Source of the DNA: an uncultured beta proteobacterium
GTDB lineage: Bacteria; Pseudomonadota; Gammaproteobacteria; Burkholderiales; Burkholderiaceae_C
DNA: 64,000 nucleotides
Assembly: GCA_963827645.1 (NCBI GenBank)
Contig: CAWHBZ010000010.1
Span: 28,325 to 92,324, forward strand
Direction: 5' to 3'
Below the pieces are notes generated by a model. The model saw only the letters and a program-made list of their open reading frames with translations, had not been told where the DNA came from and made no database searches. Of the stretch, positions 1 through 42,802 are shown piece after piece; the stretch's first letter is position 1; each line of letters starts with the position of its first letter. A program made the translations under genes and the position numbers.

Positions 1-1249
1 TGCTGCGCGTGCCGGTGGCCTTCGCGCTCGGCCTCGCCTGCCTGCCGATGTACTTCATCGAGCCGCGGCTCGACACCCAGGGCCTGGTGCAGGAGACCTT
101 CAACGCCTTCAACTCCTTCATCCTGCTGGCGGTGCCGTTCTTCCTGCTCACCGCCAACCTGATGAACGTCGGCGGCATCACCGACCGGCTGGTGCGCTTC
201 TCGCGCGCGCTGGTCGGCCATTTCCCGGGCGGGCTGGCGCAGATCAACGTGGTGCTGTCGATCTTCTTCGCCGGCGTCTCGGGCTCGTCCACCGCCGACG
301 CGGCGAGCCAGAGCAAGATCTTCATCGAGGCGCAGACCAAGGAAGGCTACGACGTCAGCTTCTCGGTGGCCATCACCGCGGTGTCGGCGGTGATGGCGGT
401 GATCATCCCGCCGTCGATCCTGATGATCGTCTGGGGCGGCGTGCTACGGTGTCGATCGGCGCGCTGATGCTGGCCGGCATCATCCCGGGCCTGCTGATCG
501 GCCTGGCGCAGATGGCCACCGTGCACGCCTACGCCAAGCGGCGCGGCTACCCGACCTACCCGCGCGCCACGCTGCGCGAGGTGTTCGCCTCGGCCGCTGG
601 TGTCGGTGCCGGCGCTGATGACGCCGTTCATCATCGTCGGCGGCAAGATCTTCGGCTGGTTCACCGCCACCGAGTCGGCCGCCATCGCGGTGCTGTACGC
701 CGGCGCGCTGACGATGCTGGTGTACCGCGAGATGGGCCTGAAGGGCCTGCACCACGCGCTGCTCGATACCGGCAAGCTCGCCGGCGATCGCGCTGTTCTG
801 CGTCGGCACCGCCAGCGCCTTCGGCTGGCTGCTGGCGTACTACCAGATCCCGAAGGCGCTGCTGGCCGGCGTGGCCGCCTGGGGCATGGGGCCGACGACC
901 ACCGGCGTTCTTCATCGCCGGCGTGTTCCTGGTGGTCGGCTGCTTCCTCGACGCGATCCCGGCGATCATCATCGTCGGCACCATCCTGCAGCCGCTGGCG
1001 CAGACGCGCCGGCATGGACCCGGTGCACTTCGCCATCGTCGGCATCGTCTCGCTGGCCTTCGGCCTGGTGACGCCGCCGTACGGCCTGTGCCTGATGGTG
1101 GCCTGCGCGGTGGCCAAGATCCGCATGGTCGACGCGCTGAAGGACACCATGATCATGCTGGTGCCGATGCTGCTGGTGCTGGCGCGATCATCATGTGGCC
1201 CAGCGTGCCGCTGTTCCTGCCGCGGCTGTTCCCGCCCGGCACGTTGTAG
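1..1249 (+). CDS. dctM: TRAP transporter large permease DctM family, 5' end outside the window, split over at least 3 frames
   Basis: ORFs 9..467, 449..1249 and 600..1286 together give DctM-like sequence (MNVGGITDRLVRFSRALVGHFPGGLAQINVV..SGSSTADAA; C-terminal VTPPYGLCLMVACAVAKI). Stop TAG at 1247..1249. Confidence 0.75.
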   Translation, partial: AARAGGLRARPRLPADVLHRAAARHPGPGAGDLQRLQLLHPAGGAVLPAHRQPDERRRHHRPAGALLARAGRPFPGRAGADQRGAVDLLRRRLGLVHRRRGEPEQDLHRGADQGRLRRQLLGGHHRGVGGDGGDHPAVDPDDRLGRRATVSIGALMLAGIIPGLLIGLAQMATVHAYAKRRGYPTYPRATLREVFASAAGVGAGADDAVHHRRRQDLRLVHRHRVGRHRGAVRRRADDAGVPRDGPEGPAPRAARYRQARRRSRCSASAPPAPSAGCWRTTRSRRRCWPAWPPGAWGRRPPAFFIAGVFLVVGCFLDAIPAIIIVGTILQPLAQTRRHGPGALRHRRHRLAGLRPGDAAVRPVPDGGLRGGQDPHGRRAEGHHDHAGADAAGAGAIIMWPSVPLFLPRLFPPGTL

Positions 1250-1250
1250 C

Positions 1251-1585
1251 AAGAAAGGATTTTCAGGGTGTTGGGAAAGGGATTAGAGAAAGGTAAGAGA
1301 GAGATAAAGGAAAAGAGGGAGAAGGAATGGAAGAGAATAGTGAAAGAAGGGAGGATAGGATGGCTGCCCAGAAAGTGAGGCAGAAAATATGAGAGGAAAG
1401 TGAAAGAGAGGGAGAGAGATAAAGAGAGTGTGTAAGAAGAAGAGAGAGAGGAAGAAAGTGGAAATAAGAGGGATGATAGAAAGGAGGAAGAGAAGAGATG
1501 ATGAAGGTGAAGAGATAAGAGTGGATGTGAGAAGGTGTAATCTAGAGAGAAAGGGTGTAAGACTGGGTCGGTAACAAGGGCGATG
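1251..1585. repeat. ~330 bp strand-asymmetric polypurine tract (A+G ~85% on + strand, about 7 C in the 300 nt between 1261 and 1560), GC ~40% in a ~70% GC genome
   Basis: Direct reading of 1251..1585. Dominated by GAGAG, AAGAG and GGAAG motifs. Only low-complexity Ser/Leu/Phe 'ORFs' read across it on the minus strand. Confidence 0.9.
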
Positions 1586-1777
1586 TTCAATCGCAAGGCG
1601 AAGGCGCTGGCTGCTCCGGGCGGCGCGATGAGCGCGGCGAAGGTGACTACGGTTGAGGCGATGTGCTCGCCGCCTGCGACGCGCTGGACGGCAACGCCGA
1701 CGGCGTGGTACGACGCAGAGCGGCCAACGCGAAGAACCCCGCCACGTAGCGCTGCCCCGGTGGCGGCGAGAAAGCAA

Positions 1778-2677
1778 ATGCAAACCATCGGCTTCATCGG
1801 CGCGTCGGGCCTCATGGGCCACGGCATGGCCAAGAACCTGCAAGGCCAAGGGCCACCCGCTGGCGATCACCGCGTTTCGCAACCGCGAACGTGTGGCCGA
1901 CCTGCTGGCCGCCGGCGCCAAGGAGCTGCCCAACCCGGCGGCGATGGCGCGCGAGTGCGGCGTGGTGTTCCTGTGCGTCACCGGCTCGCCGCAGGTCGAG
2001 CAGGTGGTGACCGGCGCCGACGGCCTGCTGTCGGGCGCCGCCAAGGGGCTGATCATCGTCGACACCTCGACCAGCGAGCCCGACTCCACCGCGCGTTTGC
2101 GCGAGGCCTGCGCCGCCAAGGGCGTCAGCTTCATCGACGCGCCGCTGGCGCGCACGCCGGTGGAGGCCGAGGCCGGCAAGCTCAACGTGATGGTCGGCGC
2201 CAGCGCCGGAAGACTTCGCGCGCATCGAGCCGCTGCTGAAGTGTTTCGCCGAGAACGTGTTCCACGTCGGCGGGCCCGGCGCCGGCCACATCATCAAGCT
2301 GCTCAACAACTTCATCGCGCAGGCGATCTGCAACGCCACCGCAGAGGCGTTCGCGGTCGGCCAGCGCGCCGGCATCGACCTGAAGAAGCTGGTGTCGCTG
2401 GTGTCGGCCGGCCTGGTGAACTCCGGGCCTGTTCCAGGTGATGAGCAAGACGCTCGACGGCCAGCTCGACGGCTTGAAGTTCGAGCTCAACAACGCACGC
2501 AAGGACGTGCGCTACTACACCCACATGGCCGAGAACCTGGGCGTGCCCACCGTGATGGGCGAGGCGACGCACCAGTCGCTGGTGTTGGCGTGCGCTCTGG
2601 GCTTCGGCAACAAGCTGGTGCCGTCGCTGGTGGAGGCGCAGGAGAAGCTGGCCAACGTGAAGATCGTGCCGCGTTGA
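1778..2677 (+). CDS. NAD(P)-dependent oxidoreductase, 3-hydroxyisobutyrate dehydrogenase / tartronate-semialdehyde reductase family, frameshifted
   Basis: MQTIGFIGASGLMGHGMAKNL NAD-binding N-terminus, followed by ..LIIVDTSTSEPDST.., GGPGAGHIIKLLNNFIAQ and a C-terminal ..EKLANVKIVPR* spread across 4 frames. Confidence 0.75.
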
Positions 2678-2708
2678 CTGCGCCGATTGCTGCGCCCCGA
2701 GGCAGCAC

Positions 2709-3441
2709 TCAATTGACGACGTTTCTGATCTGATCTTCGCGGCGGCGCTCCACGCCGGCATCCACGAGCAGGCGAACGCGGGCGACGTCGTCCATCTCCC
2801 AGTTCAGGCACAGCAGGCCGAACTGGCTGATCGCCTCGGTGTCGGCGCGCTTCGTGGCCGCGTTGACGCGGGCGATCGCCTGGTGCACCCATTCGACGAC
2901 CAAAGGATCGTCGGGACGCTGCGTCAGCGCCGTCTTGTCGCCATACGGGCCTTCCTCGACCCACGCGCTGGCGGCGCCGGGAATGCCTTCGTCGGCTGCG
3001 CTCGCCGCCAACTCCACACGAAGGTCCAGTTGGCGCGCCGACAGATCGCCGCATGCCGCGGCGATGCGAGCGAAGCCATCACCATAACGCTCGCGCAAGC
3101 GGGTCGATTCCGAGTCGACGGGGAGCGACTTCAGATAACGATCGAAGTCGATCGCGTGTGCGCACTGCGCGAGCACCCCGAAGGCCTGATAACGATCACG
3201 TGGTGTTCCCGGCGACAACAGGCGTTCGACCCACGAGCGCAAGCTGACGGCATCGCTCGACGGTCGGCCGCGCAGCGTCCGGGCGGCCTCGGACGGGATG
3301 CGGTGAGCGCGCGTCTCGCCAACCGCTTTGAGCGACGCCGGGGCCTGACCCGGCTGCGGCTCGTCGTGGCTTGCAGCCCAGCCCTGTCGCGACGAGGGTC
3401 GCGAACGCCAGCACGGCGACGCCGCCAACAAGGGTCTTCAC
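2709..3441 (-). CDS. hypothetical secreted protein, frameshifted near the N-terminus
   Basis: The 240-aa ORF 2709..3431 has no family I recognise. The upstream frame 3196..3441 supplies a signal-peptide-like MKTLVGGVAVLAFATLVATGLG. Confidence 0.4.
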
Positions 3442-3557
3442 ACAACGTTCATCGCGAGCACTCCGACGCCGCGCCGATGCGGCAGCAGCCTGCTCATGGC
3501 TTGCGCCTCAGTGTGTTCCTGCTCGCCAAGCGCGGTCAACCAGCGAGGCAATGCCCG

Positions 3558-4530
3558 TCAGGGACGGTAGGCAACGCCCCTGACCGCACTCAGCCGCGGC
3601 GACGGCTCGGTGACGCCGGCCTCGAACGGGTGGAAGTACGCACCGAACAGATCGACCACCTTGCGCACGTAGGCGCGCGTCTCGGCATACGGCGGCACAC
3701 CGCGGTAGCGGTCGACCGCGCCTTCGCCGGCGTTGTAGGCGGCGGCGGCGAGCGTGACATCGCCCTGGTAGTAGGCGAGCAGCCACTGCAGGTAGGCGGT
3801 GCCGCCGCGCACGTTCTGCTGTGCGTCGTAGGCGTTGCGCACACCGAAGCGCGCGGCCGTCTCGGGGATCAGCTGCATCAGCCCCTTGGCGTTCTTCGGC
3901 GACAGCGCCACGGTGTCGAAATTCGACTCGGTCTGGATCACCGACAGCACCAGTTGCGGGTGCACCTTGTACTCGGGCGCGATGGTCTTGACCATGTTGA
4001 CGATCGGCAGCGGCCACGACGGGCGCGCCAACACCACCGGCGCCGCCGGCGGGCGGTGCGCGCCGCAATGGCGGTTTGGCGGCGGCCACCTTGGGCGGCT
4101 CGGGCTCGCGCATGCAGTCGGGCACATAGGTCGGCGCGCCGCCCACCTGGCTCAGCATGCGTTGCGCCTGCTCGTAGCCCTGCTCGGCCGCCGCATGAAA
4201 GAAGAACGCCGCCCACTGGTCGCTGCGCTCGACGCCGCGGCCGTTGCTGTACATCCAGCCGAGGTTGAATTGCGACGGCGCATCGCCCAGCCGCGCTGCC
4301 TCGCAGTACAGCCTGGCGGCGGCCGTCGGATCGCGCTCGACGCCCTCGCCGTTTTCGAGCGCCAGCGCCTGCACGCGCAGCAGCTCGCGTTTGGCCGCCT
4401 CGACGTTGCCTTCCTCGATCAGCGCGTGCGCAGGCAGCGCGCCCGCGGTGGTCAGCAGCAGGGCCAAACGCAGCACGAGCGCTGCGGCGCGATGGGAGTG
4501 TCCTTGCAGTGTGTTCACGCCGGTGGGCAT
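3558..4530 (-). CDS. Sel1-repeat-containing lytic transglycosylase (SLT domain), one frameshift
   Basis: N-terminal signal peptide plus Sel1-like repeats (..AAKRELLRVQALALENGEGVERDPTAAARLYCEAARLGDAPSQFNLGWMYSNGRGVERSDQWAAFFFHAAAEQGY..). C-terminal SLT motifs (QTESNFDTVALSPKNAKGLMQLIPETAARFG..AYNAGEGAVDRY) lie in ORF 3558..4127. Confidence 0.75.
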
Positions 4531-4569
4531 TCGCGAGTGGGCGATTTCAGCCCGCCGCGCCGGCCGCCG

Positions 4570-5171
4570 TCAATCCCCGATCCGGCGGCCCGCCGCGCAT
4601 TCGGCGATCAGGCGCTCGAGCCGGCGCAGTTGCGTCGCCTCCTGCTTGGCACTTGTCACCCAATGCACCACCTTGCGCTTGAAGCCCGGCGGCAGCGCCT
4701 GCCAGAAGGCCCACGCCGCCTTGTCGGCGCGCAGGCGCTTCTCGAACGCGGTGCCGAAGCGCTCACTCTTGCCGGCCGGCGACTCGTAGCTGTAGCCGCT
4801 GCGCGAGTGCGCGTGGCGGTCCTCGTAGGCGCGCAGGCCGGCGGCGTGCATGCGGCCTTCGGCGATCAGCTCCTCGGCGATGCGGATGTTGATCGCGCTC
4901 CACACGCTGCCGCGGCGCCGCGGCACGAAGCGGATCACGTAGGCCTCGTCGCCGAGCGATTTGCGAATGCCATCGATCCAGCCCACACGCAGCGCCTCGC
5001 GCACCGCCTGCGGCCAGTCGATGCTCGGCTTGCCGGTGCCTTTCTTCCAGAAGCCGACCCACAACTCGGGCGCGCGCTCGTGATGCCGGTCGAGCCAGGC
5101 ACCAAACGACTGCGCCGACGCAAAGTGGCGCGGCTTGATGGCCGGCGCCGCGGCCCTCTTTGCGACGGCGC

Positions 5172-5175
<4 letters not shown>
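4570..5175 (-). CDS. YdeI/OmpD-associated family protein (DUF1801-like)
   Basis: ..[103 protein letters not shown] start overlaps the upstream stop as GTGA. Confidence 0.6.
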
Positions 5176-6690
<1,515 letters not shown>

Positions 6691-6726
6691 GGCGGCGGGT
6701 CGCTGGAAAACCCGGGCTTGCGACTG

Positions 6727-6746
6727 CTGTAATTATAGGATTACAG
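6727..6746. promoter_or_regulatory. perfect 20-bp palindrome CTGTAATTATAGGATTACAG in the divergent intergenic region, candidate GntR/FadR-type operator (GT..AC core)
   Basis: The sequence at 6727..6746 is its own reverse complement. It lies 30 bp upstream of the GntR gene start (6777) and between it and the sigma-54 activator gene. Confidence 0.45.
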
Positions 6747-6776
6747 TGCGCCCAGCACCACTCCGGTGTGCGACCC

Positions 6777-7450
6777 ATGGCCGATCCGATCCCCCTGCAC
6801 GGCACCTCGATGCACGACGGCGTGGCGGCGCGGCTGCGCGCGATGGTGTTCGACGCGCGAGCTCGGCGCCCGGCGACTACATCGACGAGAAGGCGCTGGC
6901 CGCGCGCTGGCAGATCAGCCGCACGCCGCTGCGCGAGGCGCTCAAGGTGCTGGCCGCCGAAGGCCTGGTCGAGCTGGTGCCGCGGCGCGGCTGCCGCGTC
7001 ATCGAGATGACCGACGCCGACGCCGAGGCGCTGTTGCCGGTGATGGCGCTGCTCGAGGGCCGCTGCGCCTACGAGGCGGTGCGCAAGGCCAGCGACGACG
7101 ACATCGCCGAGCTGCAGGCGCCTGCACGACCAGCTCGAGCGCCACGCCGCCGCGCACGCACATCGACGGCTACTACCGCGCCAACCACGCCTTCCACAGC
7201 CGCGTGCAGGCGCTGGCCGACAACCGCTGGCTCGACCGCGTGACCGGCGACCTGCGCAAGTTCGTGCGCCTGTGGCGCGGCCGGCAGCTCGCGCTGCCCG
7301 GGCGCATCGACGCCTCGATCAACGAGCACCGCGTGCTGATCGACGCCATCGAGCAGCGCGACGCGGTGCGCGCCGAACGCGCGATGCACGACCACCTGAT
7401 GGCGCAGCTGGCCGCGCTGAAGGCGCTGCAACGCCAGCTGCGCAAGCGCC
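6777..7450 (+). CDS. GntR-family transcriptional regulator with FCD domain (MatR-like), frameshifted, 3' end approximate
   Basis: MADPIPLHGTSMHDGVAARLRAMVFD.. then GDYIDEKALAARWQISRTPLREALKVLAAEGLVELVPRRGCRV (HTH). FCD-like ..HIDGYYRANHAFHSRVQALADNRWLDRVTGDLRKF..INEHRVLIDAIEQRD. Confidence 0.7.
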
Positions 7451-7469
7451 GCAGCGCAGCGGCGCCGTG

Positions 7470-8814
7470 CGGCGGCGCGCAGCGGCCGGAGGCCGCCGTG
7501 CTGGCTGAGCTGAAACGCAAGGCCGCAGGGCCTGCGCCAGGACCACGCGCTGCGCGGCCTGCTCGCCGAATGCAGGCGCCTGCTGTCCGAGCGCGGCGAG
7601 GCCAACGGCCCGGCGATCGCGCCGGGCATCGTCGAGCGCATCGAGGCGCTGGCCGACGACCAGCCGCTGGCGCTTCTTCGACCACCTGGCGCGCGACTTC
7701 AGCCCCGACCCCGAGGCGGTGCTGGCCAGCGCGCAGGCCTATGCGCGAGCAGCCCGGCGCCGAGCAGCTGATGCGCCTGACGCACGCCACCGAGCCGCCG
7801 CGGCAGGAGCTGTTTCGACGGCTCAACCGCACGCCGGGCGGCACCGCGGCGATCGTGCGCCTGCGCCGCGCGCTGCTCGAGCGGCTGCCGAAGCAACCCG
7901 CAGCTGCAGGCGGTGGAGGCCGACCTGCTGCACCTGCTGTCGAGCTGGTTCAACGCCGGCTTCCTGCAGATGCGCCGCGTCGACTGGAACTCGCCGGCGC
8001 AACTGCTCGAGCAGATCATCCGCCACGAGGCGGTGCACGAGATCGACGGCTGGGACGACCTGCGCCGCCGCCTGCAGCCCGACCGCCGCTGCTTTGCCTT
8101 CTTCCACCCGCAACTGCCCGACGAGCCGCTGATCTTCGTCGAGGTGGCGCTGGTGCGGCGAGATGGCCGGGTGCCATCGCGCCGCTGATCGACAAGAAGT
8201 CGCACGCCGCTGGCCAGCGACCACTTCAAGGTCGCGGTGTTCTATTCGATCAGCAACTGCCAGCCCGGGCTGCGCAACGTGTCGCTCGGCAACTTCCTGA
8301 TCAAGCGCGTGGCCGACGAGCTCAAGCGCGAGCTGCCGCAGCTGAAGACCTTCTGCACGCTGTCGCCGATCCCGACGCTGGTGCCGTGGCTGGCGCGCCT
8401 GCAACGGCTCGACGCGCTGCCCGGCGTCAAGGCGCAGCAGGCCGAGCGCGCGCTGCAATCGCTCGCCGCTGCTGCGCAAGGCGTGCGGCGACGACCTCGC
8501 CGGCCTCACGCACGCCAACACGCTGCACGCGATGCCGACGCGCCGCGCACCAGGCGCTGTGGCGGCTGGCCGCGCTGTACCTGGTGCACGCGTCGCCGAC
8601 GCCGCAGGGCGACCCGGTGGCGCGTTTCCACCTCGACAACGGCGCGCGGCTGGAGCGCCTGAACGCCAGCGCCAACCTGTCGGCCAAGGGCCTCAAGCAG
8701 TCGGCCGGCCTGATGGTCAACTACCTGTACGACCTGTCGCGCATCGAGACTTGCCACGATCGATTCGTGCACGGCCGGGTGGTACATTCGCGCGCCCTTT
8801 CGGCGCTGCTGTAG
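7470..8814 (+). CDS. matA: malonyl-CoA decarboxylase (MatA/MCD), frameshifted, 5' end approximate
   Basis: ..LLSERGEANGPAIA..IEALADDQ.., LLHLLSSWFNAGFLQMRRVDWNSPAQLLEQIIRHEAVHEIDGWDDLRRRL, MFYSISNCQPGLRNVSLGNFLIKRVADELKRELPQLKTFCTLSPIP, and C-terminal ..VARFHLDNGARLERLNASANLSAKGLKQSAGLMVNYLYDLSRIE.. ending at 8814. Confidence 0.8.
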
Positions 8815-8861
8815 CCGCACATTCAACGATGGTGCGCCGCACCGAAAACCGAGGAGACCGC

Positions 8862-9854
8862 ATGACCCCCATTTATCGACCCTCGCGCCGCGTGGTGCTG
8901 CGCGCCGCTGCCGCGGTGGCCGCGCTGGGCAGCGGCGCCGTCAAGGCGCAGGCGTGGCCTAACAAGCCCGTCACGCTGATCGTGCCGTTCCCCGCCGGCG
9001 GCGGCACCGACGCCTTCGCGCGGCCGCTGACCGCGATGCTGAGCAAGAACCTCGGCCGCCAGGTGATCATCGACAACAAGGGCGGCGCCGGCGGCACGGT
9101 GGGCGCCGTCGCTGGCCTCGCGCGCCGCGCCCGACGGCTACACCTTCTTCATGGGCGCCGTGCACCACACGATCGCGCCGTCGATGTACGCCAAGCTCGA
9201 CTACAACATCGAGACCGATTTCGTGCCGGTGGGGCTGGTGTCGAGCGTGCCGCAGGTGATCGTGGTGCACCCGCAGCGCGTGCCGGTGAAGGACCTGAAG
9301 GAGTTTCTCGAGCTACGTGCGCAAGAACCCGGGCAAGCTCAACTACGGCTCGGCCGGCAACGGCACGTCGCACCACCTGGCCGGCGAGCTGTTCAAGCTG
9401 CAGACCAAGACCTTCATCACCCACATCCCGTACCGCGGCGCCGGCCCGGCGCTGCAGGACCTGATCGCCGGCCAGGTCGACATGATGTTCGACGGCATGG
9501 GCTCTTCGTCCGCGCACATCAGGGCCGGCCGCATCAAGGCGCTGGCGGTGGCCGTCGCAAAAGCGCGCACCGGGCTTCGCCGACCTGCCCACCAGCGTCG
9601 AGGCCGGCGGCCCCGACTACCAGGTGTCCACCTGGTACGGCATCTGGGCGCCCAAGGGCACGCCCAAGGAGATCGGCGACCAGTTGCAAGCCGAGATGAA
9701 GAAGGCGTTCGCCGCCGACGAGATCAAGAGCCAGTGGAACGGCATGGGCGCCGAGATACCCAACATCTTCGGCGCCGAGTTCGGCAGGTTCGTCAGCAGC
9801 GAGGTCAAGCGCTGGGCCGAAGTGGTGAAGGCATCGGGCGCGAAGCTGGATTGA
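8862..9854 (+). CDS. Bug-family (TctC-like) tripartite tricarboxylate transporter substrate-binding protein, frameshifted
   Basis: MTPIYRPSRRVVLRAAAAVAALGSGAVKAQAWPNKPVTLIVPFPAGGGTDAFARPLTAMLSKNLGRQVIIDNKGGAGGTVGA.. then ..KLNYGSAGNGTSHHLAGELFKLQTKTFITHIPYRGAGPALQDLIAGQVDMMFDG.. then ..STWYGIWAPKGTPKEIGDQL..FVSSEVKRWAEVVKASGAKLD*. Confidence 0.8.
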
Positions 9855-23436: not shown

Positions 23437-26351
23437 TCACCCACACGCGCCGATGTAGCCGCACGTGGTGCAGAACTCGCAGCCGTCCTTGTGGATCAGC
23501 GTCGGGTTGCCGCACTCGGGGCAGCGCGCGCCGGCCATCGGCACGGCGCGCGCCGTTGCGCGGCTTGTCGGCGGGCGTCTGCAGGATGCCCATCGCGTTG
23601 AGCGGAAAGCCCGCTGCATCGAGCACGCCGAGCATCGCGTAGCGGTGGATCACCAGCCGCGCGATGTAGGCCACCGTCGACGGCCAGAGCTGCTGGCGGC
23701 GCTCGCCCGGCACCGGCGCCATGAAGTGGCCGAGCGGCTCGCCGCACGTTGAGCAGCTTGCGCAGCTTCATGCCGATCCACGCCGGGTCGATCACCCGCA
23801 TGTCGAGCGACAGCAGGCGCGCCAGGCCGTCGAGCGCGCGCGGGTAGTTGCCCGAGAAGCCGATCGCGCACGGCCGCGTCACGAGCGCGCCGTCGGTCCG
23901 CCGGCAGCTGCACTTCCTTCAGCGTGAGCGGTGAACGCCTCGCCGCTGGCCGGGTTGGACACGTCCACCGCCCACGCCAGCGTGCCCGAGGTGCCGGTGC
24001 GCGGCTCGTCGCGGCTGAACATCGCGTCGAGCACCGGCGTCGAGCCGCCGCTCCTGCAGCGCGCCGAGCTGCTCGCAGCGCCAGCGGATCACCGCCGCGG
24101 TGGCCGCCACCACGCCGGGGAACAGGCGCGGCTCGCCGTGCGGCGGCAACGGCATCTCGAACGAGCGCTCTTCCGACACCGTGGCCAGCGCGTCGAGCTT
24201 GAGGCTGCAGCCACGCGGCGTCGTTGGCGCGCATGTCCATCGACAGCGTCTTGGCCAGCGCCGCCAGGCCGCGCGGCTGCTCGGCGCCGTTGACCCACAC
24301 CTCGAACGGCAGGTTGCGCGCGAACAGGCCCGACTCCGGCCCCGCCTCGGCGGGCAACTCGCCGACGAACAGCGCGAACTCGCCGAGCGGGTGCTGGATC
24401 ATGTAGCTCCACGCCGGGTTGCCGCCGGGCAAGCTCGGGGCGGCTCGGCCAGCGCAGCGACGCCAGCACCGGCGCCGGCAGGCGCTCGAGCGCGCAGGCG
24501 CTGGTTGGCGTCGTCACCGGCCACCGTTGCGGCGGCGCGGCTGCGGCCGCGTCGACGCTGAGCACCGCGCCGAGCACCGCGTTCGGCCGGTAGGTCGCCA
24601 GGCCCTTCAGGCCCGACTTCCACGCGCTGCAGGTACAGGCCCTGGAAGTCGGCGTACGGATAGTCGGCCGGCACGTTGACCGTCTTGCTGATCGAGGTGT
24701 CGATGAACGGCGCCACCGCGGCCACCATCGCGGCGTGGTCCTCGCGCGCTCATCTCCAGCGCGGTGACGAAGGCGTCGCTCAGCGGCGTCGTCGTCGCCC
24801 TTGAGGTGCCGGTACAGGCGCCAGGCGTGGTCTTCGACCGCGTACTCCTTGAAGCGTGCCGTCGGGCTCGCGCTTGCTTGCCGCGTGTAGCTCCAGCTGA
24901 ACGCCGGCTCGATGCCGTTGCTCGCGTTGTCGGCAAACGCCAGGCTGATGGTGCCGGTGGGCGCGATCGACAGCAGGTGCGAGTTGCGGATGCCCTGCGC
25001 GCGGATGCTTGTCCTTCAGCGCCTGCGGCAGGCGCGACGCGAAGCTGCCGCGCGACAAGTACAGGTCGGCGTTGAACAGCGGGAACGCGCCGCGCTCGCG
25101 CGCCAGGTCGACCGACGCGTCGTAGGCGGCGTCGCGCATCACCTCGGCGATGCGCGCGGCCTCGGCGCGCGCGGCGGCGCTGTCGTAGCGCAGGTCCGAG
25201 CATCACCAGCGCGTCGCCGAGCCCGGTGAAGCCGAGGCCGATGCGCCGCTTGGCGCGCGCCTCGTCGTGCTGCTGCGGCAGCGGCCACACGGTGGACGTC
25301 GAGCACGTTGTCGAGCATGCGCACCGCGACCTTCACCACGTCGACGAAGGCGTCGTCGTCGAAAGCGCGCGTTCGGCTCGAACGGGTCGTGCGACGAAGA
25401 GCGTGAGGTCGATCGAGCCGAGGCAGCAGCAGCCGTAGGCGGGAAGCGGTTGCTCACCGCACGGGTTGGTCGCACTCGATGCGTCTCGCAATAGCCGAGG
25501 TTGTTGTCGGCGTTGATGCGGTCGATGAACAGCACGCCCGGCTCGGCGTGGTCGTAGGTCGAGCGCATGATCTGGTCCCACAGGTCGCGCGCGCGCGGGC
25601 GCGCGGTAGACCCACAGGCCGTCGGCGCGCCGCTGCGCGCCGGCGGCCTTCTGCGCCGCGCTCGGCTCGGCGCGGTGCACCAGCTCGACCTCGAGGTCGT
25701 CCTCGACCGCGCGCATGAAGGCATCGGTCACGCCGACCGAGATGTTGAAGTTGGTGAGCTCGCCGGCGTCCTTGGCGTGGATGAACTCTTCGACGTCGGG
25801 GTGGTCGCAGCGCAGCACGCCCATCTGCGCGCCGCGCCGGCTGCCGGCGGACTCCACCGTTTCGCAGGAGCGGTCGAACACCCGCATGTAGCTCACCGGC
25901 CCCGATGCGCTGCTCTGCGTGGTGCCGACCCAGGCGCCCTTGCGGGCGGATGCGCGAGAAGTCGTAGCCCACGCCGCCGCCGCGGCGCATGGTCTCGGCC
26001 GCTTCGGTGAGCGCGATGTAGATGCCGGGATAGCCTTCTTCGGGCTCGGCGATCGAGTCGCCCACCGGCTGCACGAAGCAGTTGATCAGCGTGGCGCCGA
26101 GCGCCGGTGCCGGCCGCCGAGTCGATGCGCCCGGCGGGGATGAAGCCGCTCCTTTGCGCGTCGAAGAAGCGCCCCTCCCACAGCGTGCGCGTCGCCGGCG
26201 CCTCGACCGCGGCCAGCGCACGCGCCACCCGCGCGCGCACGTCGTCGGCGCTGCGCTCGTCGCCCTTGGCGTACTTTTCGAGCAGCACCTCGTGGCTGAT
26301 CGGCTGTTGCGGCAGCGCCAGTGCCTGGTGCTGGATCGTCGAATCGGACAT
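23437..26351 (-). CDS. nrdJ: class II (adenosylcobalamin-dependent) ribonucleotide reductase NrdJ, ~970 aa, many frameshifts
   Basis: N-terminal [32 protein letters not shown].., ..[51 protein letters not shown].., ..[19 protein letters not shown].., C-terminal zinc ribbon ..[28 protein letters not shown]. Confidence 0.85.
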
Positions 26352-26620
26352 CGTCAAATGCTCCGGACAAGGTGGTGGGCGCGCGCAGGGCGCGCACCCT
26401 GCCATCGAGGGACAACCCGATCAGCGGGCCGCACGGAAACTGTATGGAAAATCAGTATCGCGCGACCCCTGCCGGGCCGCAAGAGCCAGCGCCGTTCGCG
26501 GACTTCGCATGGGGTTGTTCCCCGCGGCTTGACGCATGGGCCGAACCGTGGTCGCGCTGCGTGTTGTCTCGTCGTCATAGAGTTCGCTGTCTTGCCACCC
26601 CATCACGCGGAGCCACCCCG

Positions 26621-27037
26621 ATGAGCGCGAGCGACAACAAGCAACTCCTGCAGGCCGTCTTCGAGGCCATGGCCGTCGGCAACACGCGGCCGTTCGGCGA
26701 GCTGATGGCCGATGACTGCCGCTGGGTCACGCCCGGCCAGTCGGTCTGGTCGGGCGTGTGGCACGGCAAGAAGGCGATGAACGAACAACTGTTCGCGCCG
26801 CTGTACAAGCGTTTCGCCGGCAAGTACACCAGCCACGCCAGCCGTTTCGTCGCCGACGGTGATGTGGTCGTCGTCGAGGCCCGTGGCCAGGCCACGCTGA
26901 AGACCGGCGGGAGCTACGACAACACCTACTGCTTCGTCTGCGAGTTTCGCGACGGCAAGCTGATCCAGGTGACCGAGTACATGGACACCGACCTCGCGGT
27001 GCGCGTGTTGGGCGCGCCGGGCGCGATCGCGGCCTGA
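26621..27037 (+). CDS. SnoaL-like / NTF2-like (ketosteroid isomerase fold) protein
   Basis: MSASDNKQLLQAVFEAMAVGNTRPFGELMADDCRWVTPGQS..GKLIQVTEYMDTDLAVRVLG. Confidence 0.65.
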   Translation: MSASDNKQLLQAVFEAMAVGNTRPFGELMADDCRWVTPGQSVWSGVWHGKKAMNEQLFAPLYKRFAGKYTSHASRFVADGDVVVVEARGQATLKTGGSYDNTYCFVCEFRDGKLIQVTEYMDTDLAVRVLGAPGAIAA

Positions 27038-27117
27038 CGGCGTACGCAATCCTGCCAATCGCACGGAAGCAGCGTCGCGTCTACAACAATGCATCACCAC
27101 ATCGATCGGAGGTTGCC

Positions 27118-27504
27118 ATGGCCGCGCTCACGCAAACGCAAGTCACCTGCATGCTGCCGGTGAAGGATCTCGCCCGCGCACGCCGCTTCTACGAGCAGCA
27201 GCTCGGCCTCGAGCCGGGCGCGGCCAAACCCGACGGCAAGTTCGTCTACCGCTGTGGCGGCACCGAGCTGGCACTGTTCCCGAAGGCCGAGGGCACGAAG
27301 GCCGAGCACACGGCCCTGAGCTTCCGGGTGGCCGACATCGGCCGCGCCGTCGCCGAACTCAAGGGGCGCGGCGTGCGCTTCGCCGACTACGATTTCCCGG
27401 GCCTGAAGACCGTCGAACACGTGTGTGTGCTCGGCTCCGAGAAGGCGGCCTGGTTCGAGGATCCGGAAGGCAATATCCTGTGCCTGCACGAAGACATCGC
27501 CTGA
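27118..27504 (+). CDS. VOC family protein (glyoxalase-like)
   Basis: MAALTQTQVTCMLPVKDLARARRFYEQQLGLEP..TELALFP..WFEDPEGNILCLHE. Intact. Confidence 0.7.
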   Translation: MAALTQTQVTCMLPVKDLARARRFYEQQLGLEPGAAKPDGKFVYRCGGTELALFPKAEGTKAEHTALSFRVADIGRAVAELKGRGVRFADYDFPGLKTVEHVCVLGSEKAAWFEDPEGNILCLHEDIA

Positions 27505-27559
27505 AGCGCGCCGGGATTCAATGCCCGCGCGCACGGCCGCGCGCACGGAGGGCAACGGC

Positions 27560-27953
27560 ATGGAGAACTTGAACTGGTGGGCGATCGTGCTCGCCGCGGT
27601 GTGCTCGTTTCTGCTCGGAGGTCCCTGGTACCGTCGGCGTTGTTCGGCAAGGCCTGGAACCGCGAGGCCAAGAGCAGCCAGCCGGCAGGATCGGGCCACC
27701 GGCCAAGGTGTTCGGCCTGAGCTTCGTGTTTTCGCTGATCGCCGCGGCGGCATTCGCCTGGTGGCTGGGGCCGAAACCGCCGCTGCAAGGCGCGCTGGGC
27801 AGCGGGCTGCTGGTGGGCGCGTGTTTCGTGGCCACCAGCTTCGGCATCAACTACCAGTTCGCCAACCGCAGCACGTTGATGTGGCTGATCGACGGCGGTT
27901 ATCACGTCGCGCAGTTCGTGTTGTTCGGTCTGGTGCTCGGCTTGTGGCACTGA
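27560..27953 (+). CDS. DUF1761-like small membrane protein, one frameshift
   Basis: MENLNWWAIVLAAVCSFLLGGPWY.. then ..FGLSFVFSLIAAAAFAWWLGPK..GINYQFANRSTLMWLIDGGYHVAQFVLFGLVLGLWH*. Confidence 0.55.
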
Positions 27954-38093: not shown

Positions 38094-39229
38094 TCACGGT
38101 TGTCTCCTTTGTTGGGAAGTCATGGCCTGGTTCGGCCCGAAGCGCGAGCGAAGCTTCGCCCACAGTCCGAGCAGGCCGTCGGGGGAAAACAGCACGATGG
38201 CGAGGAACACGCCGCCGATCACGAGGTTGAAGCGCTCGCGGTCGATCAGGTCGATGGCGAAGGTCTGCAGCAGCACGAAGGCGACGGCGCCGAGAAACGC
38301 GCCGATCGGATGCCGCATGCCGCCGAGCACGGCAACCACCAGGATGTTGATCAGCCACGAGGTGCTCGACCGATCCCGGCGTGATGAGGCCGTTGTACCA
38401 GACCAGCAGCACGCCGCCGACCGCGGCGATCAGCCCGGCCAGCGCATAGGCCGCGACGCGGTGCGCGACGACGTGGAAGCCCAGCGCCGCCATGCGCCGC
38501 GGGTTGTCGCGGATGCCCTGCATGGCGATGCCGAACGGCGCGCGCACCACCCAGCGCACGCAGCGAAGTAGCCGGCCAGCGCGCACGACCAGGCTCGAGG
38601 AAGTAAAACGGCAGCGGGTCGCGCCAGGCGACGCCCAGCACCTTGGGCGGATACACCTCGCGCAGGCCCTGGAAGCCGTTGAACACGCTGTAGTTCTGCA
38701 GCACCAGGTAGTAGAAGGCCACGCCGATGGCCAGCGTGATCATGATCGTGTAGATGCCCTCGGTGCGCACCGACAGCCAGCCGATCAGCGTGGCGCACAC
38801 GGTGGCGATGGCGATCGCGAACGGCACCGCCACCCACCACGGCCAGTCGAGGCTGATCTCGGTGCCGCTGCTGGTGCCGAGAATCGCCACCGCATAACCG
38901 GCCATGCCGGCCACCGTCATCTGCGCCAGCGACACCATGCCGCCGTAGCCGCCGAGAAAGGTGAGCGACAGCGCGATCAGGCCCAGCACCAGCGACTGCG
39001 CCGCCACCTGGAAGGTGAAGAACGGCGTGGCGACGAACGGAAAAAGCAGCACGAAGGCGAGCACGAACACGTGGCGCGGCTCGAGCGTGCGCCACAGGTA
39101 TTTCAACCAGCGCGGGGCGCCGCTGTCGGCGTACGGATCGGTCGGCGCGTCGGCGGCGCCACGGCGCGGCGCGCTCGGCGCACGGCGCAGCGCGCGCAGC
39201 GCGCGCATGCGCCGGCCGCGGTCGTTCAT
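38094..39229 (-). CDS. livM: ABC transporter permease, LivM-like, one frameshift
   Basis: ..SLVLGLIALSLTFLGGYGGMVSLAQMTVAGMAGYAVAIL.. and C-terminal ..AFVLLQTFAIDLIDRERFNLVIGGVFLAIVLFSPDGLLGLWAKL... Confidence 0.8.
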
Positions 39230-40203: not shown

Positions 40204-41490
40204 TCACGCGGCGCGCTTCCCCAGGCCCGCTCGGCCGCGATGTCGGGCTGCTTGGCGAACACGCCGTCCTTCATCACCGCGAGCAAACGTTTCGGGTCGC
40301 GCAGGATCGCGAGGTTGGCCATCGGGTCGCCATCGACCAGCAGCAGGTCGGCGAGGTAAGCCTTCCTTGATCTGCCCCAGCTCGCCCGGCTTCATCATGA
40401 TCTGGCCGCCGTACAGCGTGGCGCAGCGGATCGCCTCGCCCGGCGTGAAGCCCAGGTACTTGACGAAGAACTCGAGGTCGCGCGCGTTCTGGCAGTGCGG
40501 CGTCATCGCGAAGCCGTAGTCACCGCCGAACAGGATGCGCACGCCGCGCTTGTGCATCGCCTTCAGCGATTCGACGGCGTGATCCCACTCGTGCTGGTAG
40601 CCCATGGCCACCGCCTGGGCGTGCGTGACGCCCCACTGCTCGGCCTCGTGCAGCATCGCGTACAGGATCGCGATGCCCGGCGCGACGAACACGCGGTCGC
40701 GCGCGGCTTCGAGCATGTCGAGCGTCTCGTCGTCGGTGTAGCTGGCGTGGTAGATCACGTCGATGCCGTGGCGCAGCGCCTGCTTGACGCTGGCCGCCGA
40801 GCGCGCGTGCGCGGTGCCGCGCTTGCCGCGCATGCGCACCTCTTCCATCGCGGCGGCCACCTCGGCATCGGTCATCCAGTTGGTGTCGGCCGGCGACTGC
40901 GGCGTGAAGTTGTCGCCCGACAGGTTGAGCTTGATCGAATCGACGCCGTACTTGAGAAACAGGCGCACGGCCTTGCGCATCTCTTCGGCGCCGCTGACGT
41001 TGACGCCGAAGCTGAACTCGGGAAACGGCAGGTGCGGCAACGTCTCGTCGCCGAGCGCCCCCAGCACCGTGATCTCCTGGCTGGCGGCGAGGTAACGCGG
41101 GCCCGGGATCTGCCCGGCATCGATGGCGTTGCGGATCACCACGTCGAGCCGCGGCTTGGCGCACGCGGCGCCGACGCACGACGTGAAGCCCGCTTCCAGA
41201 TAGCGCCTGGCGACCTTGGCGCACCACAACACGTGCTCTTCGAGCGGCATCGTCTGGATGCCGGCCAGCGTGGCCGCGTCGTTCCACGAGAAGTGCGTGT
41301 GGGCCTCGCACATGCCGGGCATCAGCGTGGCGCCGGCGCCGTCGATGATCGTGGCACCGGCCGGCGAGATCGCCGCGTTGCTGCGCCCGACCGCCTTGAT
41401 GCGGTTGCCCTGCACCAGCACGCTGCCGGGCACCGGGTTGCCGCCGCTGCCGTCGAGGATGCGCACGTTGGTGAACAGCGTATTGGCCAT
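40204..41490 (-). CDS. amidohydrolase-family metallo-hydrolase (paralogue 1), C-terminal frameshift
   Basis: MANTLFTNVRILDGSGGNPVPGSVLVQGNRIKAVG..IDGAGATLMPGMCEAHTHFSWND..PRLDVVIRNAIDAGQIPGPRYLAAS.. About 55% identical to the next gene. Confidence 0.8.
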   Translation of the reverse strand: MANTLFTNVRILDGSGGNPVPGSVLVQGNRIKAVGRSNAAISPAGATIIDGAGATLMPGMCEAHTHFSWNDAATLAGIQTMPLEEHVLWCAKVARRYLEAGFTSCVGAACAKPRLDVVIRNAIDAGQIPGPRYLAASQEITVLGALGDETLPHLPFPEFSFGVNVSGAEEMRKAVRLFLKYGVDSIKLNLSGDNFTPQSPADTNWMTDAEVAAAMEEVRMRGKRGTAHARSAASVKQALRHGIDVIYHASYTDDETLDMLEAARDRVFVAPGIAILYAMLHEAEQWGVTHAQAVAMGYQHEWDHAVESLKAMHKRGVRILFGGDYGFAMTPHCQNARDLEFFVKYLGFTPGEAIRCATLYGGQIMMKPGELGQIKEGLPRRPAAGRWRPDGQPRDPARPETFARGDEGRRVRQAARHRGRAGLGKRAA

Positions 41491-41500
41491 CGTCGTCTCC

Positions 41501-42802
41501 TCAGGCGGCCCAGCGTGTAGCCGTTGTCGTGCGTGACGCGGCGCGCACCGGCGGCGCGCGGTGGAACTCGCCGTCCTTCATCACCGCGAGGATGCGGTTC
41601 TTGTCCTGCAGCACCGTGATGTCGGCCAGCGGGTCGCCATCGATCAGCAGGATGTCGGCCAGGCAGCCTTCGCGGATGTAGCCGAGCTGCTTGCCCATCT
41701 TCATCATCGGCCCGCCCCACGCGGTGGCCGACAGCAGCGCCTCCATCGTGCTCATGCCGACGTGCTTGACGAAGTACTCCAGGTCCTTCGCATTGGTGCC
41801 GTGCGGCGTCCACGCGAAGCCGTAGTCGCCGCCGGGCAGGATGCGGATGCCGCGCTTGCGCATCGCCTTCATGCTCTCGATCGCGCATTCGAGCTCGCGG
41901 TGGTAGCCCATCTTGCGCGTCACTTCGGGCGTGAGGCCCCACTGCGACGCGTGGTGGCAGGTGTTGATCAGCCACGCCAGGCCGGGGGCGACGAAGTGCT
42001 CGAACTTGTGCTGCTCCAGCAGGTCGAGCGCCTCCTCGTCGGCGAAGCTGGCGTGGTAGATCACCTCGATGCCCTGCTTGACGCATTGCTTGATCGACCA
42101 GGTCGAGCGCGCGTGCGCGGCAACGCGCTTGCCCCAGGCCTTGGCCTCCTGCACGCAGACGGTGATCTCCTCTTCGGTGAACTGGCTGGCCTCGCTGGGC
42201 ATGCCGGTGATCGATTCGCCGGACAGGTTGATCTTCAGCGTGTCGACCCCGTACTTGGCGAACATGCGCACGCAGCGCCGCATCTCGTGCGGGCCGCTGA
42301 CGATGGCGCCGAATGCGAACTCGGGTTGCGGCAGATGCGGCTGCGTGGTGTCGCCCAGGCCGCCGGGCACCGTGATCTCCTGGCTCGCCGCCAGGTATCG
42401 CGGCCCGATGATGGTGCCGTCGTTGATCGCGTTGCGGATCACCACGTCGAGCCGCGGCTTGGCGGCCGCGGCGCCGACGCAGCTGGTCCAGCCCATGTCG
42501 AGGTAGCGCTTGGCGACCTCGGCGCACCACAGGATGTGCTCTTCCGGCGGCATGCGCTGGATCGCATCGAGGCTCGGCTGGTCGTTCCACGAGAAGTGCG
42601 TGTGCGCCTCGACCATGCCGGGCATCAGGAAGGCGCCGGCGCCGTCGATCATCTGCGCGCCGGCGATCGGCTGGCTGCGCTGGCCATAGCCGGTCTTGAC
42701 GACGCGGCTGATCTTGTTGCCCTGCACCAGCACGTCGCCGGTGAACGGCGCTTCGCCACCGCCGTCGAAGACCCGCACGTTGGTGAAGAGAACGTCGGCC
42801 AT
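41501..42802 (-). CDS. amidohydrolase-family metallo-hydrolase (paralogue 2, intact)
   Basis: MADVLFTNVRVFDGGGEAPFTGDVLVQGNKISRVV..IDGAGAFLMPGMVEAHTHFSWND..PRLDVVIRNAINDGTIIGPRYLAAS..HARS..ILPGGDYGF... Confidence 0.85.
   Translation of the reverse strand: MADVLFTNVRVFDGGGEAPFTGDVLVQGNKISRVVKTGYGQRSQPIAGAQMIDGAGAFLMPGMVEAHTHFSWNDQPSLDAIQRMPPEEHILWCAEVAKRYLDMGWTSCVGAAAAKPRLDVVIRNAINDGTIIGPRYLAASQEITVPGGLGDTTQPHLPQPEFAFGAIVSGPHEMRRCVRMFAKYGVDTLKINLSGESITGMPSEASQFTEEEITVCVQEAKAWGKRVAAHARSTWSIKQCVKQGIEVIYHASFADEEALDLLEQHKFEHFVAPGLAWLINTCHHASQWGLTPEVTRKMGYHRELECAIESMKAMRKRGIRILPGGDYGFAWTPHGTNAKDLEYFVKHVGMSTMEALLSATAWGGPMMKMGKQLGYIREGCLADILLIDGDPLADITVLQDKNRILAVMKDGEFHRAPPVRAASRTTTATRWAA

What the first reader, a model, noticed from the sequence alone, without database searches (positions are those of the whole stretch)
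1251..1585. A 330-bp purine-only low-GC tract sits between dctM and a dehydrogenase gene in a 70% GC genome
The + strand from 1251 to about 1585 is about 85% A+G, with roughly 7 cytosines in the 300 nt between 1261 and 1560 and a GC content near 40%. It is built from degenerate GAGAG, AAGAG and GGAAG units with no exact periodicity. Nothing else in the 64 kb resembles it, and no plausible protein reads across it (only low-complexity Ser/Leu/Phe translations). Homopurine/homopyrimidine mirror-like tracts of this length can form H-DNA or triplexes, act as nucleoid-protein (H-NS-like) binding islands, or block replication forks. It could also be the remnant of a foreign insertion or an assembly artefact.
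Basis: seen in the sequence. Interest (0 to 1): 0.8.

Follow-up and report, generated by a model that had tools for sequence, protein, structure and literature searches.

The report
Purine-converted tannase gene fragment, probably artefact
The odd purine-rich stretch is a piece of an ordinary esterase gene in which nearly every C and many T on one strand read as A or G; this is most likely a sequencing or assembly fault in an error-rich contig, not a designed DNA element.

Summary
Window 1250-1585 has 3% C, 83% purine and 43% GC in a 71% GC window, and no other block in the 64 kb resembles it. It is not a low-complexity element of its own kind.

The 528-nt spacer between the dctM stop (1247-1249) and the dehydrogenase start (ATG 1778) is 12-19 nt in four related contigs. 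The extra ~510 nt is an internal fragment of a tannase/feruloyl-esterase gene. Its right part (1586-1770) is ordinary high-GC DNA. Its left part is the purine tract.

When window A/G may pair with homologue C/T, the tract aligns end to end with the upstream codons of the same gene (score 274.5; controls 139-144, maxima 176-188). At columns invariant in six homologues:
- A is kept at 29/31 and G at 60/65.
- T is kept at 21/35.
- C is kept at 2/70 (48 to A, 17 to G).

The right edge of the block is sharp, at about 1563-1590. The contig carries about one single-base insertion per 150-400 nt.

Best reading (about 0.6): a pyrimidine-blind base-calling or consensus fault over a poorly supported pseudogene insertion. 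Rival (about 0.2): real strand-specific hypermutation, which would be unprecedented. H-DNA, H-NS-island, sRNA and vector readings find no support.

The parts
1..1249 (+). 3' part of a dctM-like TRAP-transporter large permease gene, split over three frames by single-base indels; stop codon TAG at 1247-1249. Normal composition up to the stop.
   Evidence: ORFs. 89-93% nt identity to L001, L009, L010 and L011 up to the stop. Indels are listed.
1250..1270 (+). Probable remnant of the native dctM-dehydrogenase spacer. 1258-1270 GATTTTCAGGGTG resembles L001's GCTTTTCACGGAG, which contains the ribosome-binding site. It already lies inside the C-depleted block (1 C in 21 nt).
   Evidence: Alignments, read by eye. 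The match is short, so this is suggestive only.
1250..1585 (+). The pyrimidine-depleted ('purinised') block, which is the finding itself. C reads as A (about 69%) or G (about 24%). T reads as A or G in about 40% of cases. A and G are kept at about 93%. There are 8 one-base insertions and no deletions relative to homologues.
   Evidence: Composition. Substitution tables. Shuffle controls. Context dependence.
1264..1770 (+). Internal fragment (about aa 155-322 of a 520-550-aa protein) of a tannase/feruloyl-esterase family gene, without start or stop and with frameshifts. It is a pseudogene fragment inserted between the native ribosome-binding site and the dehydrogenase start codon.
   Evidence: Pfam PF07519, E 2.6e-5. 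blastn of 1562-1769 against L014, E 1e-28. Annotated tannase genes on Variovorax replicons. Tolerant alignment of 1266-1560 to the upstream codons. tblastn.
1586..1770 (+). Unconverted part of the fragment, with normal high-GC composition. It encodes ..FNRKAKALAAPGGAMSAAKVTTVEA / VLAACDALDGNADGVV.. with a frameshift. C is kept at 37/52 invariant columns. Small patches such as about 1728-1740 again show pyrimidine-to-purine changes.
1778..2677 (+). 3-hydroxyisobutyrate-dehydrogenase-like gene (NAD_binding_2 / NAD_binding_11), broken by three single-base insertions. In relatives it starts 12-19 nt after the dctM stop.
   Evidence: (best hit 93% identity).

Best explanation
The tract is ordinary high-GC coding DNA whose pyrimidines on the + strand are written as purines. 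It is not a sequence element in its own right.

Shown:
1. A ~510-nt internal fragment of a tannase/feruloyl-esterase gene lies between dctM and the dehydrogenase. Relatives have only 12-19 nt there.
2. The left ~310 nt of that fragment, and probably the ~20 nt of native spacer before it, keep A and G in register with homologues. They have C replaced by A or G, and about 40% of T replaced.
3. The contig is riddled with single-base insertions, so its consensus is of low quality.

Inferred:
- The insertion itself is probably real. Truncated copies of this gene occur in related genomes. It would be poorly covered as a repeat or a minority variant.
- The conversion is a record-level fault. One or a few single-molecule reads, or a consensus step, failed to distinguish pyrimidines over a contiguous ~335-nt interval, and no other read corrected it.
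- On this reading the tract has no biological function.

If the sequence were real, it would separate the dehydrogenase start codon from its native ribosome-binding site by about 510 nt.
For: Insertion:
- Four related contigs (89-93% nt identity) have dctM and the dehydrogenase 12-19 nt apart. The window has 528 nt.

Origin of the sequence:
- The right part is a tannase-family fragment.
- The tract aligns with the upstream codons of the same gene only when A/G may stand for C/T. The tolerant score is 274.5, against 138.9 +/- 8.0 (max 176) for shuffles and 143.9 +/- 9.9 (max 188) for random genomic segments. Plain scoring sees nothing.
- At homologue-invariant columns A is kept at 29/31, G at 60/65, T at 21/35 and C at 2/70. 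Kept purines versus kept pyrimidines give p = 2e-26.
- In a C-to-A reduced alphabet the tract has the same mono- and dinucleotide statistics as the rest of the genome.

Signs of a call-level fault:
- The right edge is sharp: C is kept at 2/12 columns in 1546-1585 and at 11/13 in 1586-1625.
- The base written for C depends on its neighbour. After G it is A 32 and G 4; after C it is A 10 and G 14; p = 1.5e-4. This fits a context-reading caller better than a base-specific chemistry.
- Insertions are about 5 times denser in the block (8 in ~295 nt) than in the flanks.
- Contig quality is low. There are about 26 one-base insertions against about 6 deletions relative to relatives. Against a same-species contig of 97.45% identity there are 6 insertions and 2 deletions in 2278 nt.

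No independent sighting:
- A 31-mer of the tract has no exact match in 185,579 species genomes or in JGI metagenome contigs.

From established knowledge: no known mutational process converts about 97% of C to A/G on one strand over 300 nt while leaving G and A untouched.
Against: - No raw reads could be examined, so the artefact is inferred and not seen.
- Ordinary long-read noise looks different. Nanopore errors are mostly deletions, and transitions outnumber transversions (PMC8486125). Outside the block the window's substitutions against a same-species contig are ordinary, with 31 of 50 being transitions. Some unusual failure mode must therefore be assumed, and I cannot name a documented one.
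- Purine positions are read accurately inside the block (about 93%). That is not what a generally noisy read gives.
- The left edge of the block coincides, within about 20 nt, with the left junction of the insertion. This hints that conversion and insertion are linked, which a random glitch would not predict. Poor coverage confined to a repeated fragment could explain it.
- An insertion that returns exactly to the next native base is hard to produce by chimeric reads, so at least the insertion is probably real DNA.
Confidence: 0.6

Rival explanations
1. The sequence is real. A tannase gene fragment was inserted between dctM and the dehydrogenase, and its first ~310 nt were synthesised or mutated in vivo by a strand-specific process. 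That process replaced + strand pyrimidines with purines, equivalent to G-to-T/C and A-to-T on the - strand. One candidate is error-prone fill-in synthesis starting at the left junction during break repair, possibly with a purine-biased nucleotide pool. Another is copying of a template strand whose guanines were oxidised or lost; the known rule is A first, then G, inserted opposite abasic or hyperoxidised guanine sites.
For: - The conversion starts at or near the left insertion junction and stops abruptly inside the insert.
- Purines are kept in register at about 93%, as expected of a templated, base-specific process.
- The order C-to-A (69%) > C-to-G (24%) >> C-to-T (4%) matches the order known for bypass of abasic or oxidised guanine sites. 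That comparison rests on my own knowledge and was not tested here.
- The pattern does not match ordinary sequencing noise.
- The insertion returns precisely to native sequence.
- Truncated tannase copies exist naturally in relatives.
Against: - No known bacterial process gives about 97% conversion of one base on one strand over 300 nt. Lesion densities of that order would break or block the template.
- The base chosen depends on the neighbouring base.
- The contig is demonstrably error-rich.
- There is no second example in 64 kb of window or 398 kb of related loci.
- A 31-mer of the tract has no exact match in the public genome or metagenome collections scanned.
- The insertion would uncouple the dehydrogenase from its ribosome-binding site, so it should be selected against.
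Confidence: 0.2
2. One reading: an evolved homopurine/homopyrimidine element that forms H-DNA or a triplex, binds H-NS-like nucleoid proteins or blocks forks, maintained between the two genes.
For: - The low-GC, purine-rich block is unique in the window.
- Purine runs of 18-25 nt exist, and one 23-nt imperfect mirror repeat lies at 1434-1456. If the DNA is real, these could form short triplexes incidentally.
Against: - The tract is absent from four relatives with the same gene pair.
- It is derived base by base from a coding sequence, so its sequence was not shaped for structure.
- T interrupts it about every 7 nt. Mirror arms are at most 11 nt with a mismatch.
- There is no periodic unit.
- At 43% GC it is not AT-rich in the way H-NS targets usually are (my own knowledge).
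Confidence: 0.04
3. A regulatory RNA: a CsrA/RsmA sponge with many GGA motifs, or an Hfq sponge with A-R-N repeats, transcribed with the operon.
For: Many GGA and AAG/AGA triplets are visible by eye.
Against: - GGA occurs 18 times against 22.7 +/- 3.1 in shuffles. ARN-triplet runs occur 10 times against 14.6 +/- 4.1.
- There is no folding signal on either strand, z -0.8 and -1.2.
- There is no Rfam match even at E up to 10 and no promoter or terminator.
- The tract is not conserved.
Confidence: 0.02
4. Foreign or synthetic DNA: a cloning-vector piece (for example a G-less cassette on the - strand), eukaryotic contaminant DNA or a mobile element.
For: The - strand is almost free of G, like a G-less cassette (from memory). 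The GC content is foreign to the genome.
Against: - The tract is collinear with a Burkholderiales tannase gene.
- Searching 72,556 plasmid records finds only tannase genes, and only for the right part.
- There are no terminal inverted repeats or target duplication.
- The apparent 8-nt direct repeat, CAAGAAAG at 1250-1257 and CGAGAAAG at 1767-1774, does not flank the junctions.
Confidence: 0.02

Closest known systems
Truncated tannase/feruloyl-esterase pseudogene copies in related Burkholderiales (L012; L019/L020)
   Same: They belong to the same gene family and clade. L012 begins at about the same codon (aa ~155) and is collinear with window 1264-1770. L019 and L020 begin at aa 208. All carry in-frame stops.
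   Different: Those copies have normal base composition. None shows pyrimidine loss, and none lies between dctM and the dehydrogenase.
H-DNA-forming homopurine/homopyrimidine mirror repeats
   Same: Purine-rich on one strand, with runs up to 25 nt.
   Different: The tract is not uninterrupted, has no mirror symmetry over more than ~11-nt arms, is not conserved, and its sequence is dictated by a gene template.
Strand-coordinated hypermutation: APOBEC kataegis, DddA/SsdA deaminase toxins, fungal RIP, diversity-generating retroelements
   Same: Clustered, base-specific, strand-biased changes in a copy of a gene.
   Different: Deaminases and RIP give C-to-T; here C-to-T is 4%. Diversity-generating retroelements alter only template adenines; here A is kept at 29/31 and C and T are altered. 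None reaches about 97% of sites. The properties of these systems are from my own knowledge.
Mutation signature of oxidised or lost guanine (8-oxoG, hydantoins, abasic 'A rule')
   Same: On the opposite strand the changes are G-to-T > G-to-C and A-to-T, the order expected for such lesions (my own knowledge; spectrum).
   Different: The density is orders of magnitude beyond anything known. It is confined to one strand and one 335-nt block, and the replacement depends on neighbouring bases.
Ordinary long-read sequencing errors
   Same: The surrounding contig shows scattered one-base insertions typical of uncorrected single-molecule consensus.
   Different: Documented nanopore noise is deletion-rich and transition-biased (PMC8486125). 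The block is a near-complete pyrimidine-to-purine transversion with good register.

Membership tests
H-DNA / intramolecular triplex-forming tract | Uninterrupted homopurine/homopyrimidine run of about 15-20 bp or more per arm | tested here: not met
   For the 335-nt tract as a unit, T is 14% and the longest pure purine runs are 25, 22, 21 and 18 nt.
H-DNA / intramolecular triplex-forming tract | Mirror symmetry of the purine run | tested here: not met
   The best mirror repeats have arms of 11, 9 and 9 nt, each with one mismatch.
H-DNA / intramolecular triplex-forming tract | S1-nuclease or chemical sensitivity under supercoiling | not testable with these tools
   Needs an experiment.
Tannase / feruloyl esterase family gene (PF07519) | Sequence match to the family | tested here: met
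   Pfam E 2.6e-5 over profile positions 175-209; the 23.7 bits are below the 29.8-bit whole-protein cut-off because only ~35 aa are readable. blastn E 1e-28 to L014. Annotated tannase genes lie under the plasmid hits. Tolerant alignment through the GCSNGG serine-motif region.
Tannase / feruloyl esterase family gene (PF07519) | Complete open reading frame with signal peptide, catalytic Ser-His-Asp and C-terminal half | tested here: not met
   Only about aa 155-322 of 520-550 are present, with frameshifts and no start or stop. It is a fragment or pseudogene, not a gene.
CsrB/RsmZ-type CsrA-sequestering sRNA | Excess of GGA motifs presented in hairpin loops; conserved; own promoter and terminator | tested here: not met
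   GGA occurs 18 times against 22.7 expected. Folding z is -0.8. No Rfam hit, no promoter or terminator, absent from relatives.
Diversity-generating retroelement repeat (TR/VR) | Differences between the two repeats confined to adenines of the template repeat | tested here: not met
   Homologue A is kept at 29/31 while C (68/70) and T (14/35) are changed. 17 C-to-G changes are incompatible with either direction.
Diversity-generating retroelement repeat (TR/VR) | Reverse transcriptase and accessory gene nearby | not tested
   The flanking genes are dctM and a dehydrogenase. The rest of the window was not screened for reverse transcriptases.
Insertion sequence / MITE | Terminal inverted repeats and target-site duplication at the insertion ends; multiple copies | tested here: not met
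   No inverted repeats at the ends. No other copy in the window. The 8-nt direct repeat is not at the junctions.
Cloning vector / synthetic G-less cassette | High-identity match to vector sequence | tested here: not met
   No match of the tract in 72,556 plasmid records, though dedicated vector libraries were not available. The tract is collinear with a bacterial gene.

The most novel reading that the evidence does not exclude
The tract is real DNA. A copied fragment of the organism's tannase gene was inserted at a break between dctM and the dehydrogenase. Its first ~310 nt were laid down, or later rewritten, by a processive, strand-specific process that replaces pyrimidines with purines at nearly every site while keeping register. 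That would be a kind of localised transversion hypermutation not described in bacteria.
Probability: 0.15. Interest if true: 0.85.

Novelty: not a real feature. Interest (0 to 1): 0.22.

Why it matters
If it is an artefact, the value is practical. A striking 'homopurine island' in a public contig is a miscalled gene fragment, and the reduced-alphabet test used here is a quick way to unmask such blocks before anyone builds H-DNA or nucleoid-protein hypotheses on them. That test treats A/G as possible stand-ins for C/T and compares with homologues.

It also flags that this contig carries about one indel per 150-400 nt, so gene calls on it are unreliable.

If the sequence proves real, it would document an unknown strand-specific, near-saturating pyrimidine-to-purine mutagenesis tied to a templated insertion. 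That would interest DNA-repair and mutagenesis research.

Tried and rejected
- Rfam scan of 1000-2000 at E up to 10: nothing relevant.
- Search for a source of the tract inside the window, by plain and by C-to-A reduced-alphabet blast: only background hits of about 68-70% identity.
- Three-base periodicity in the tract: none. Eight one-base insertions would blur it.
- Exact 31-mer of the tract in genome contigs and metagenome contigs: no hits.
- A 26-mer from the unconverted part: only an unrelated 28-nt motif match, L045.
- Search for the donor gene or a closer homologue: nothing above about 84% identity.
- Retrieval of the window's own record. Exact look-up shows its proteins on a 146,921-bp NCBI/ENA contig, but the locus could not be fetched. 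Sequencing technology and reads therefore remain unknown.
- Target-site duplication idea, CAAGAAAG at 1250-1257 and CGAGAAAG at 1767-1774: rejected, because the left copy is about 15 nt from the junction and there are no inverted repeats.
- Other 'extra' regions relative to L002, at 4627-5127 and 6845-7448: ordinary genes, the latter GntR-like.
- The purine-rich 60-mer at 39008-39071: ordinary coding sequence.
- C-poor stretches in L025 and L026: unrelated short GTAGAG-type repeats.
- Literature search for a documented purine-only long-read artefact: none found.

Full report
**1. The observation**

Window 1251-1585 holds A 145, G 133, T 46 and C 11. Positions 1261-1560 hold 7 C. The window as a whole is 35.6% C and 70.8% GC.

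In 200-nt windows the C fraction falls to 0.02 here, against 0.358 +/- 0.031 elsewhere (minimum 0.25). This is the only stretch below 55% GC. Scans with 40-100-nt windows find no second C- or G-depleted block.

Two refinements are needed:
- T is at its normal genomic level (14%), so the tract is 'C-less', not 'purine-only'. The longest uninterrupted purine run is 25 nt.
- The dehydrogenase starts at ATG 1778, so the whole spacer is 1250-1777 (528 nt). Its right-hand 190 nt have normal composition.

**2. The surroundings**

Both flanking genes are recognisable but broken by single-base indels. Upstream is a dctM-like TRAP permease. Downstream is a 3-hydroxyisobutyrate-dehydrogenase-like gene, whose best database hit is 93% identical.

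Four related metagenome contigs (L001, L009, L010, L011; 89-93% nt identity) carry the same gene pair. In them only 12-19 nt separate the dctM stop from the dehydrogenase start. The window therefore carries about 510 extra bases there. More distant relatives (L002-L008) place the dehydrogenase after other genes.

**3. What the extra DNA is**

*The normal-composition part (1586-1770).*
- It reads ..FNRKAKALAAPGGAMSAAKVTTVEA / VLAACDALDGNADGVV.. with a frameshift.
- It hits Pfam Tannase (PF07519) at E 2.6e-5.
- It aligns with a short ENA contig, L012.
- It aligns with full-length tannase-family genes of Methylibium and other Burkholderiales MAGs, with blastn E down to 1e-28.
- It aligns with annotated tannase/feruloyl-esterase genes on Variovorax replicons.
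- The window has no other tannase gene.

*The tract (1250-1585).*
- A first clue: after turning every C into A, the rest of the window has the same base composition and dinucleotide odds as the tract. The values (tract / genome) are AA 0.84/0.87, AG 1.19/1.19, GA 1.24/1.25 and GG 0.70/0.66.
- When window A is allowed to pair with homologue C, the alignment with L012 runs leftwards through the entire tract.
- Against the consensus of six full-length homologues, window 1266-1560 aligns with the codons just upstream. These encode ..ALQKGFAQVSSDSGHQG...YFEGCSNGGRE...DGVISRAPAYNWVG, including the serine-motif region.
- The tolerant alignment score is 274.5. Shuffled tracts give 138.9 +/- 8.0 (max 176) and random genomic segments give 143.9 +/- 9.9 (max 188). 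With plain scoring nothing is detectable.

*What happened to each base, at columns invariant in the six homologues.*

| Homologue base | Kept in the tract | Changed to |
|---|---|---|
| A | 29/31 | - |
| G | 60/65 | - |
| T | 21/35 | A 11, G 3 |
| C | 2/70 | A 48, G 17, T 3 |

- Kept purines versus kept pyrimidines give p = 2e-26.
- The tract has eight one-base insertions and no deletions relative to the homologues.
- The right edge is sharp. C is kept at 4/74 columns up to 1585 and at 11/13 in 1586-1625.
- The left edge lies between the C-rich end of dctM (about 1243) and 1260.
- Positions 1258-1270, GATTTTCAGGGTG, resemble the native spacer of L001, GCTTTTCACGGAG. The block probably begins in native sequence just before the insertion junction at about 1264-1271 (by eye).

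The tract is therefore not a low-complexity element. It is a tannase gene fragment with its + strand pyrimidines written as purines.

**4. Is the fragment itself natural?**

Probably yes.
- Truncated, stop-containing copies of this gene occur in related, short-read-assembled genomes. L012 begins at about the same codon (aa ~155). L019 and L020 begin at aa 208. None of them is base-converted.
- The window's insertion returns exactly to the dehydrogenase start, which chimeric reads would not do.
- It has no inverted terminal repeats or target duplication.

**5. How did the conversion arise?**

*For an artefact.*
- The contig is of low consensus quality. Against relatives it shows about 26 one-base insertions and about 6 deletions, many not in homopolymers.
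- Against a same-species contig (L046, GCA_035476735.1, 97.45% identity) it shows 6 insertions and 2 deletions in 2278 nt.
- Insertions are about five times denser inside the block.
- The base written for C depends on the preceding base. After G it is A 32 and G 4; after C it is A 10 and G 14; p = 1.5e-4. That suits a context-reading caller.
- A 31-mer of the tract has no exact match in the genome or metagenome collections scanned.
- No known biology converts about 97% of one base on one strand over 300 nt (my own knowledge).

*Against an artefact.*
- I could not see the reads. The window's own record, a 146,921-bp NCBI/ENA contig, could not be fetched.
- Ordinary nanopore noise is deletion-rich and transition-biased (PMC8486125).
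- Outside the block the window's substitutions are ordinary.
- Purines inside the block are read accurately.
- The left edge of the block coincides with the insertion junction.

I therefore put a pyrimidine-blind call or consensus fault over a poorly covered insertion at about 0.6. I put real strand-specific hypermutation, or error-prone templated synthesis from the left junction, at about 0.2. The spectrum C-to-A > C-to-G >> C-to-T, plus T-to-A, is formally that of bypass of lost or oxidised purines on the opposite strand (my own knowledge). The density, however, is implausible.

**6.

- Triplex potential is limited to short imperfect mirror repeats, with arms of at most 11 nt.
- The internal 'repeats' are 70-76% alike and follow from the two-letter composition.
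- RNA folding shows nothing on either strand, z -0.8 and -1.2.
- GGA and A-R-N motifs are slightly below expectation.
- Rfam, promoter and terminator scans are empty.
- No vector or plasmid matches the tract.
- Above all, the sequence is dictated position by position by a gene template and is missing from relatives.

**7. Verdict**

It is most likely not a real feature of the genome. Reads across 1000-2000 would settle the question. Interest is low unless the reads confirm the sequence. In that case it would be a new kind of localised transversion hypermutation.

Noticed in passing
window 1-9000 and 25458-27733: The contig carries frequent single-base indels, mostly insertions and often outside homopolymers, at about 1 per 150-400 nt. 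They split dctM, the dehydrogenase, a sigma-54 activator, a malonyl-CoA decarboxylase-like gene and a GntR-like gene into several frames. Some stretches, such as the genes at 40204-42802, are intact.
   Followed up: partly
window 1778-6845 compared with L002-L008: Gene order differs between relatives. In L002-L004 the dehydrogenase follows a Sel1/SLT gene, and in L005-L008 a sigma-54 activator, on the same strand. In the window and in L001 and L009-L011 it follows dctM. The window has the SLT and activator genes downstream on the opposite strand, which implies an inversion or rearrangement next to the dehydrogenase.
   Followed up: partly
L012 32-88: A 57-nt near-perfect palindrome (88% self-complementary) directly abuts the 5' end of the truncated tannase copy on this 612-bp contig. 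It could be a terminator-like hairpin, a repeat-element end or a short-read assembly artefact.
   Followed up: no
L012 512-514; L019 ~555-560; L020 ~1240-1245: Truncated tannase-family copies in related genomes carry stop codons exactly at conserved cysteine codons: TGA for the Cys of CDxxDG in L012, and a stop in G-C-S-N-G-G in L019 and L020. This indicates recurrent pseudogenisation of this gene in the clade.
   Followed up: partly
window ~25458 compared with L046 1-956: The same-species contig L046 (97.45% identity) stops matching the window at 25458, inside a ribonucleotide-reductase gene. On L046 that gene carries a LAGLIDADG (intein or homing-endonuclease) domain hit. This may be a presence/absence polymorphism.
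   Followed up: no
window 6778-7450: A GntR/FCD-type regulator gene, frameshifted, lies between the sigma-54 activator and the malonyl-CoA decarboxylase-like gene. It is absent at that position in L002 and L005.
   Followed up: partly
L025 4660-4700; L026 4000-4046: Acidobacterial loci have short C-poor tandem motifs, GTAGAGT and GTGAGTA types, just downstream of a sucD-like gene. They are unrelated to the finding.
   Followed up: no
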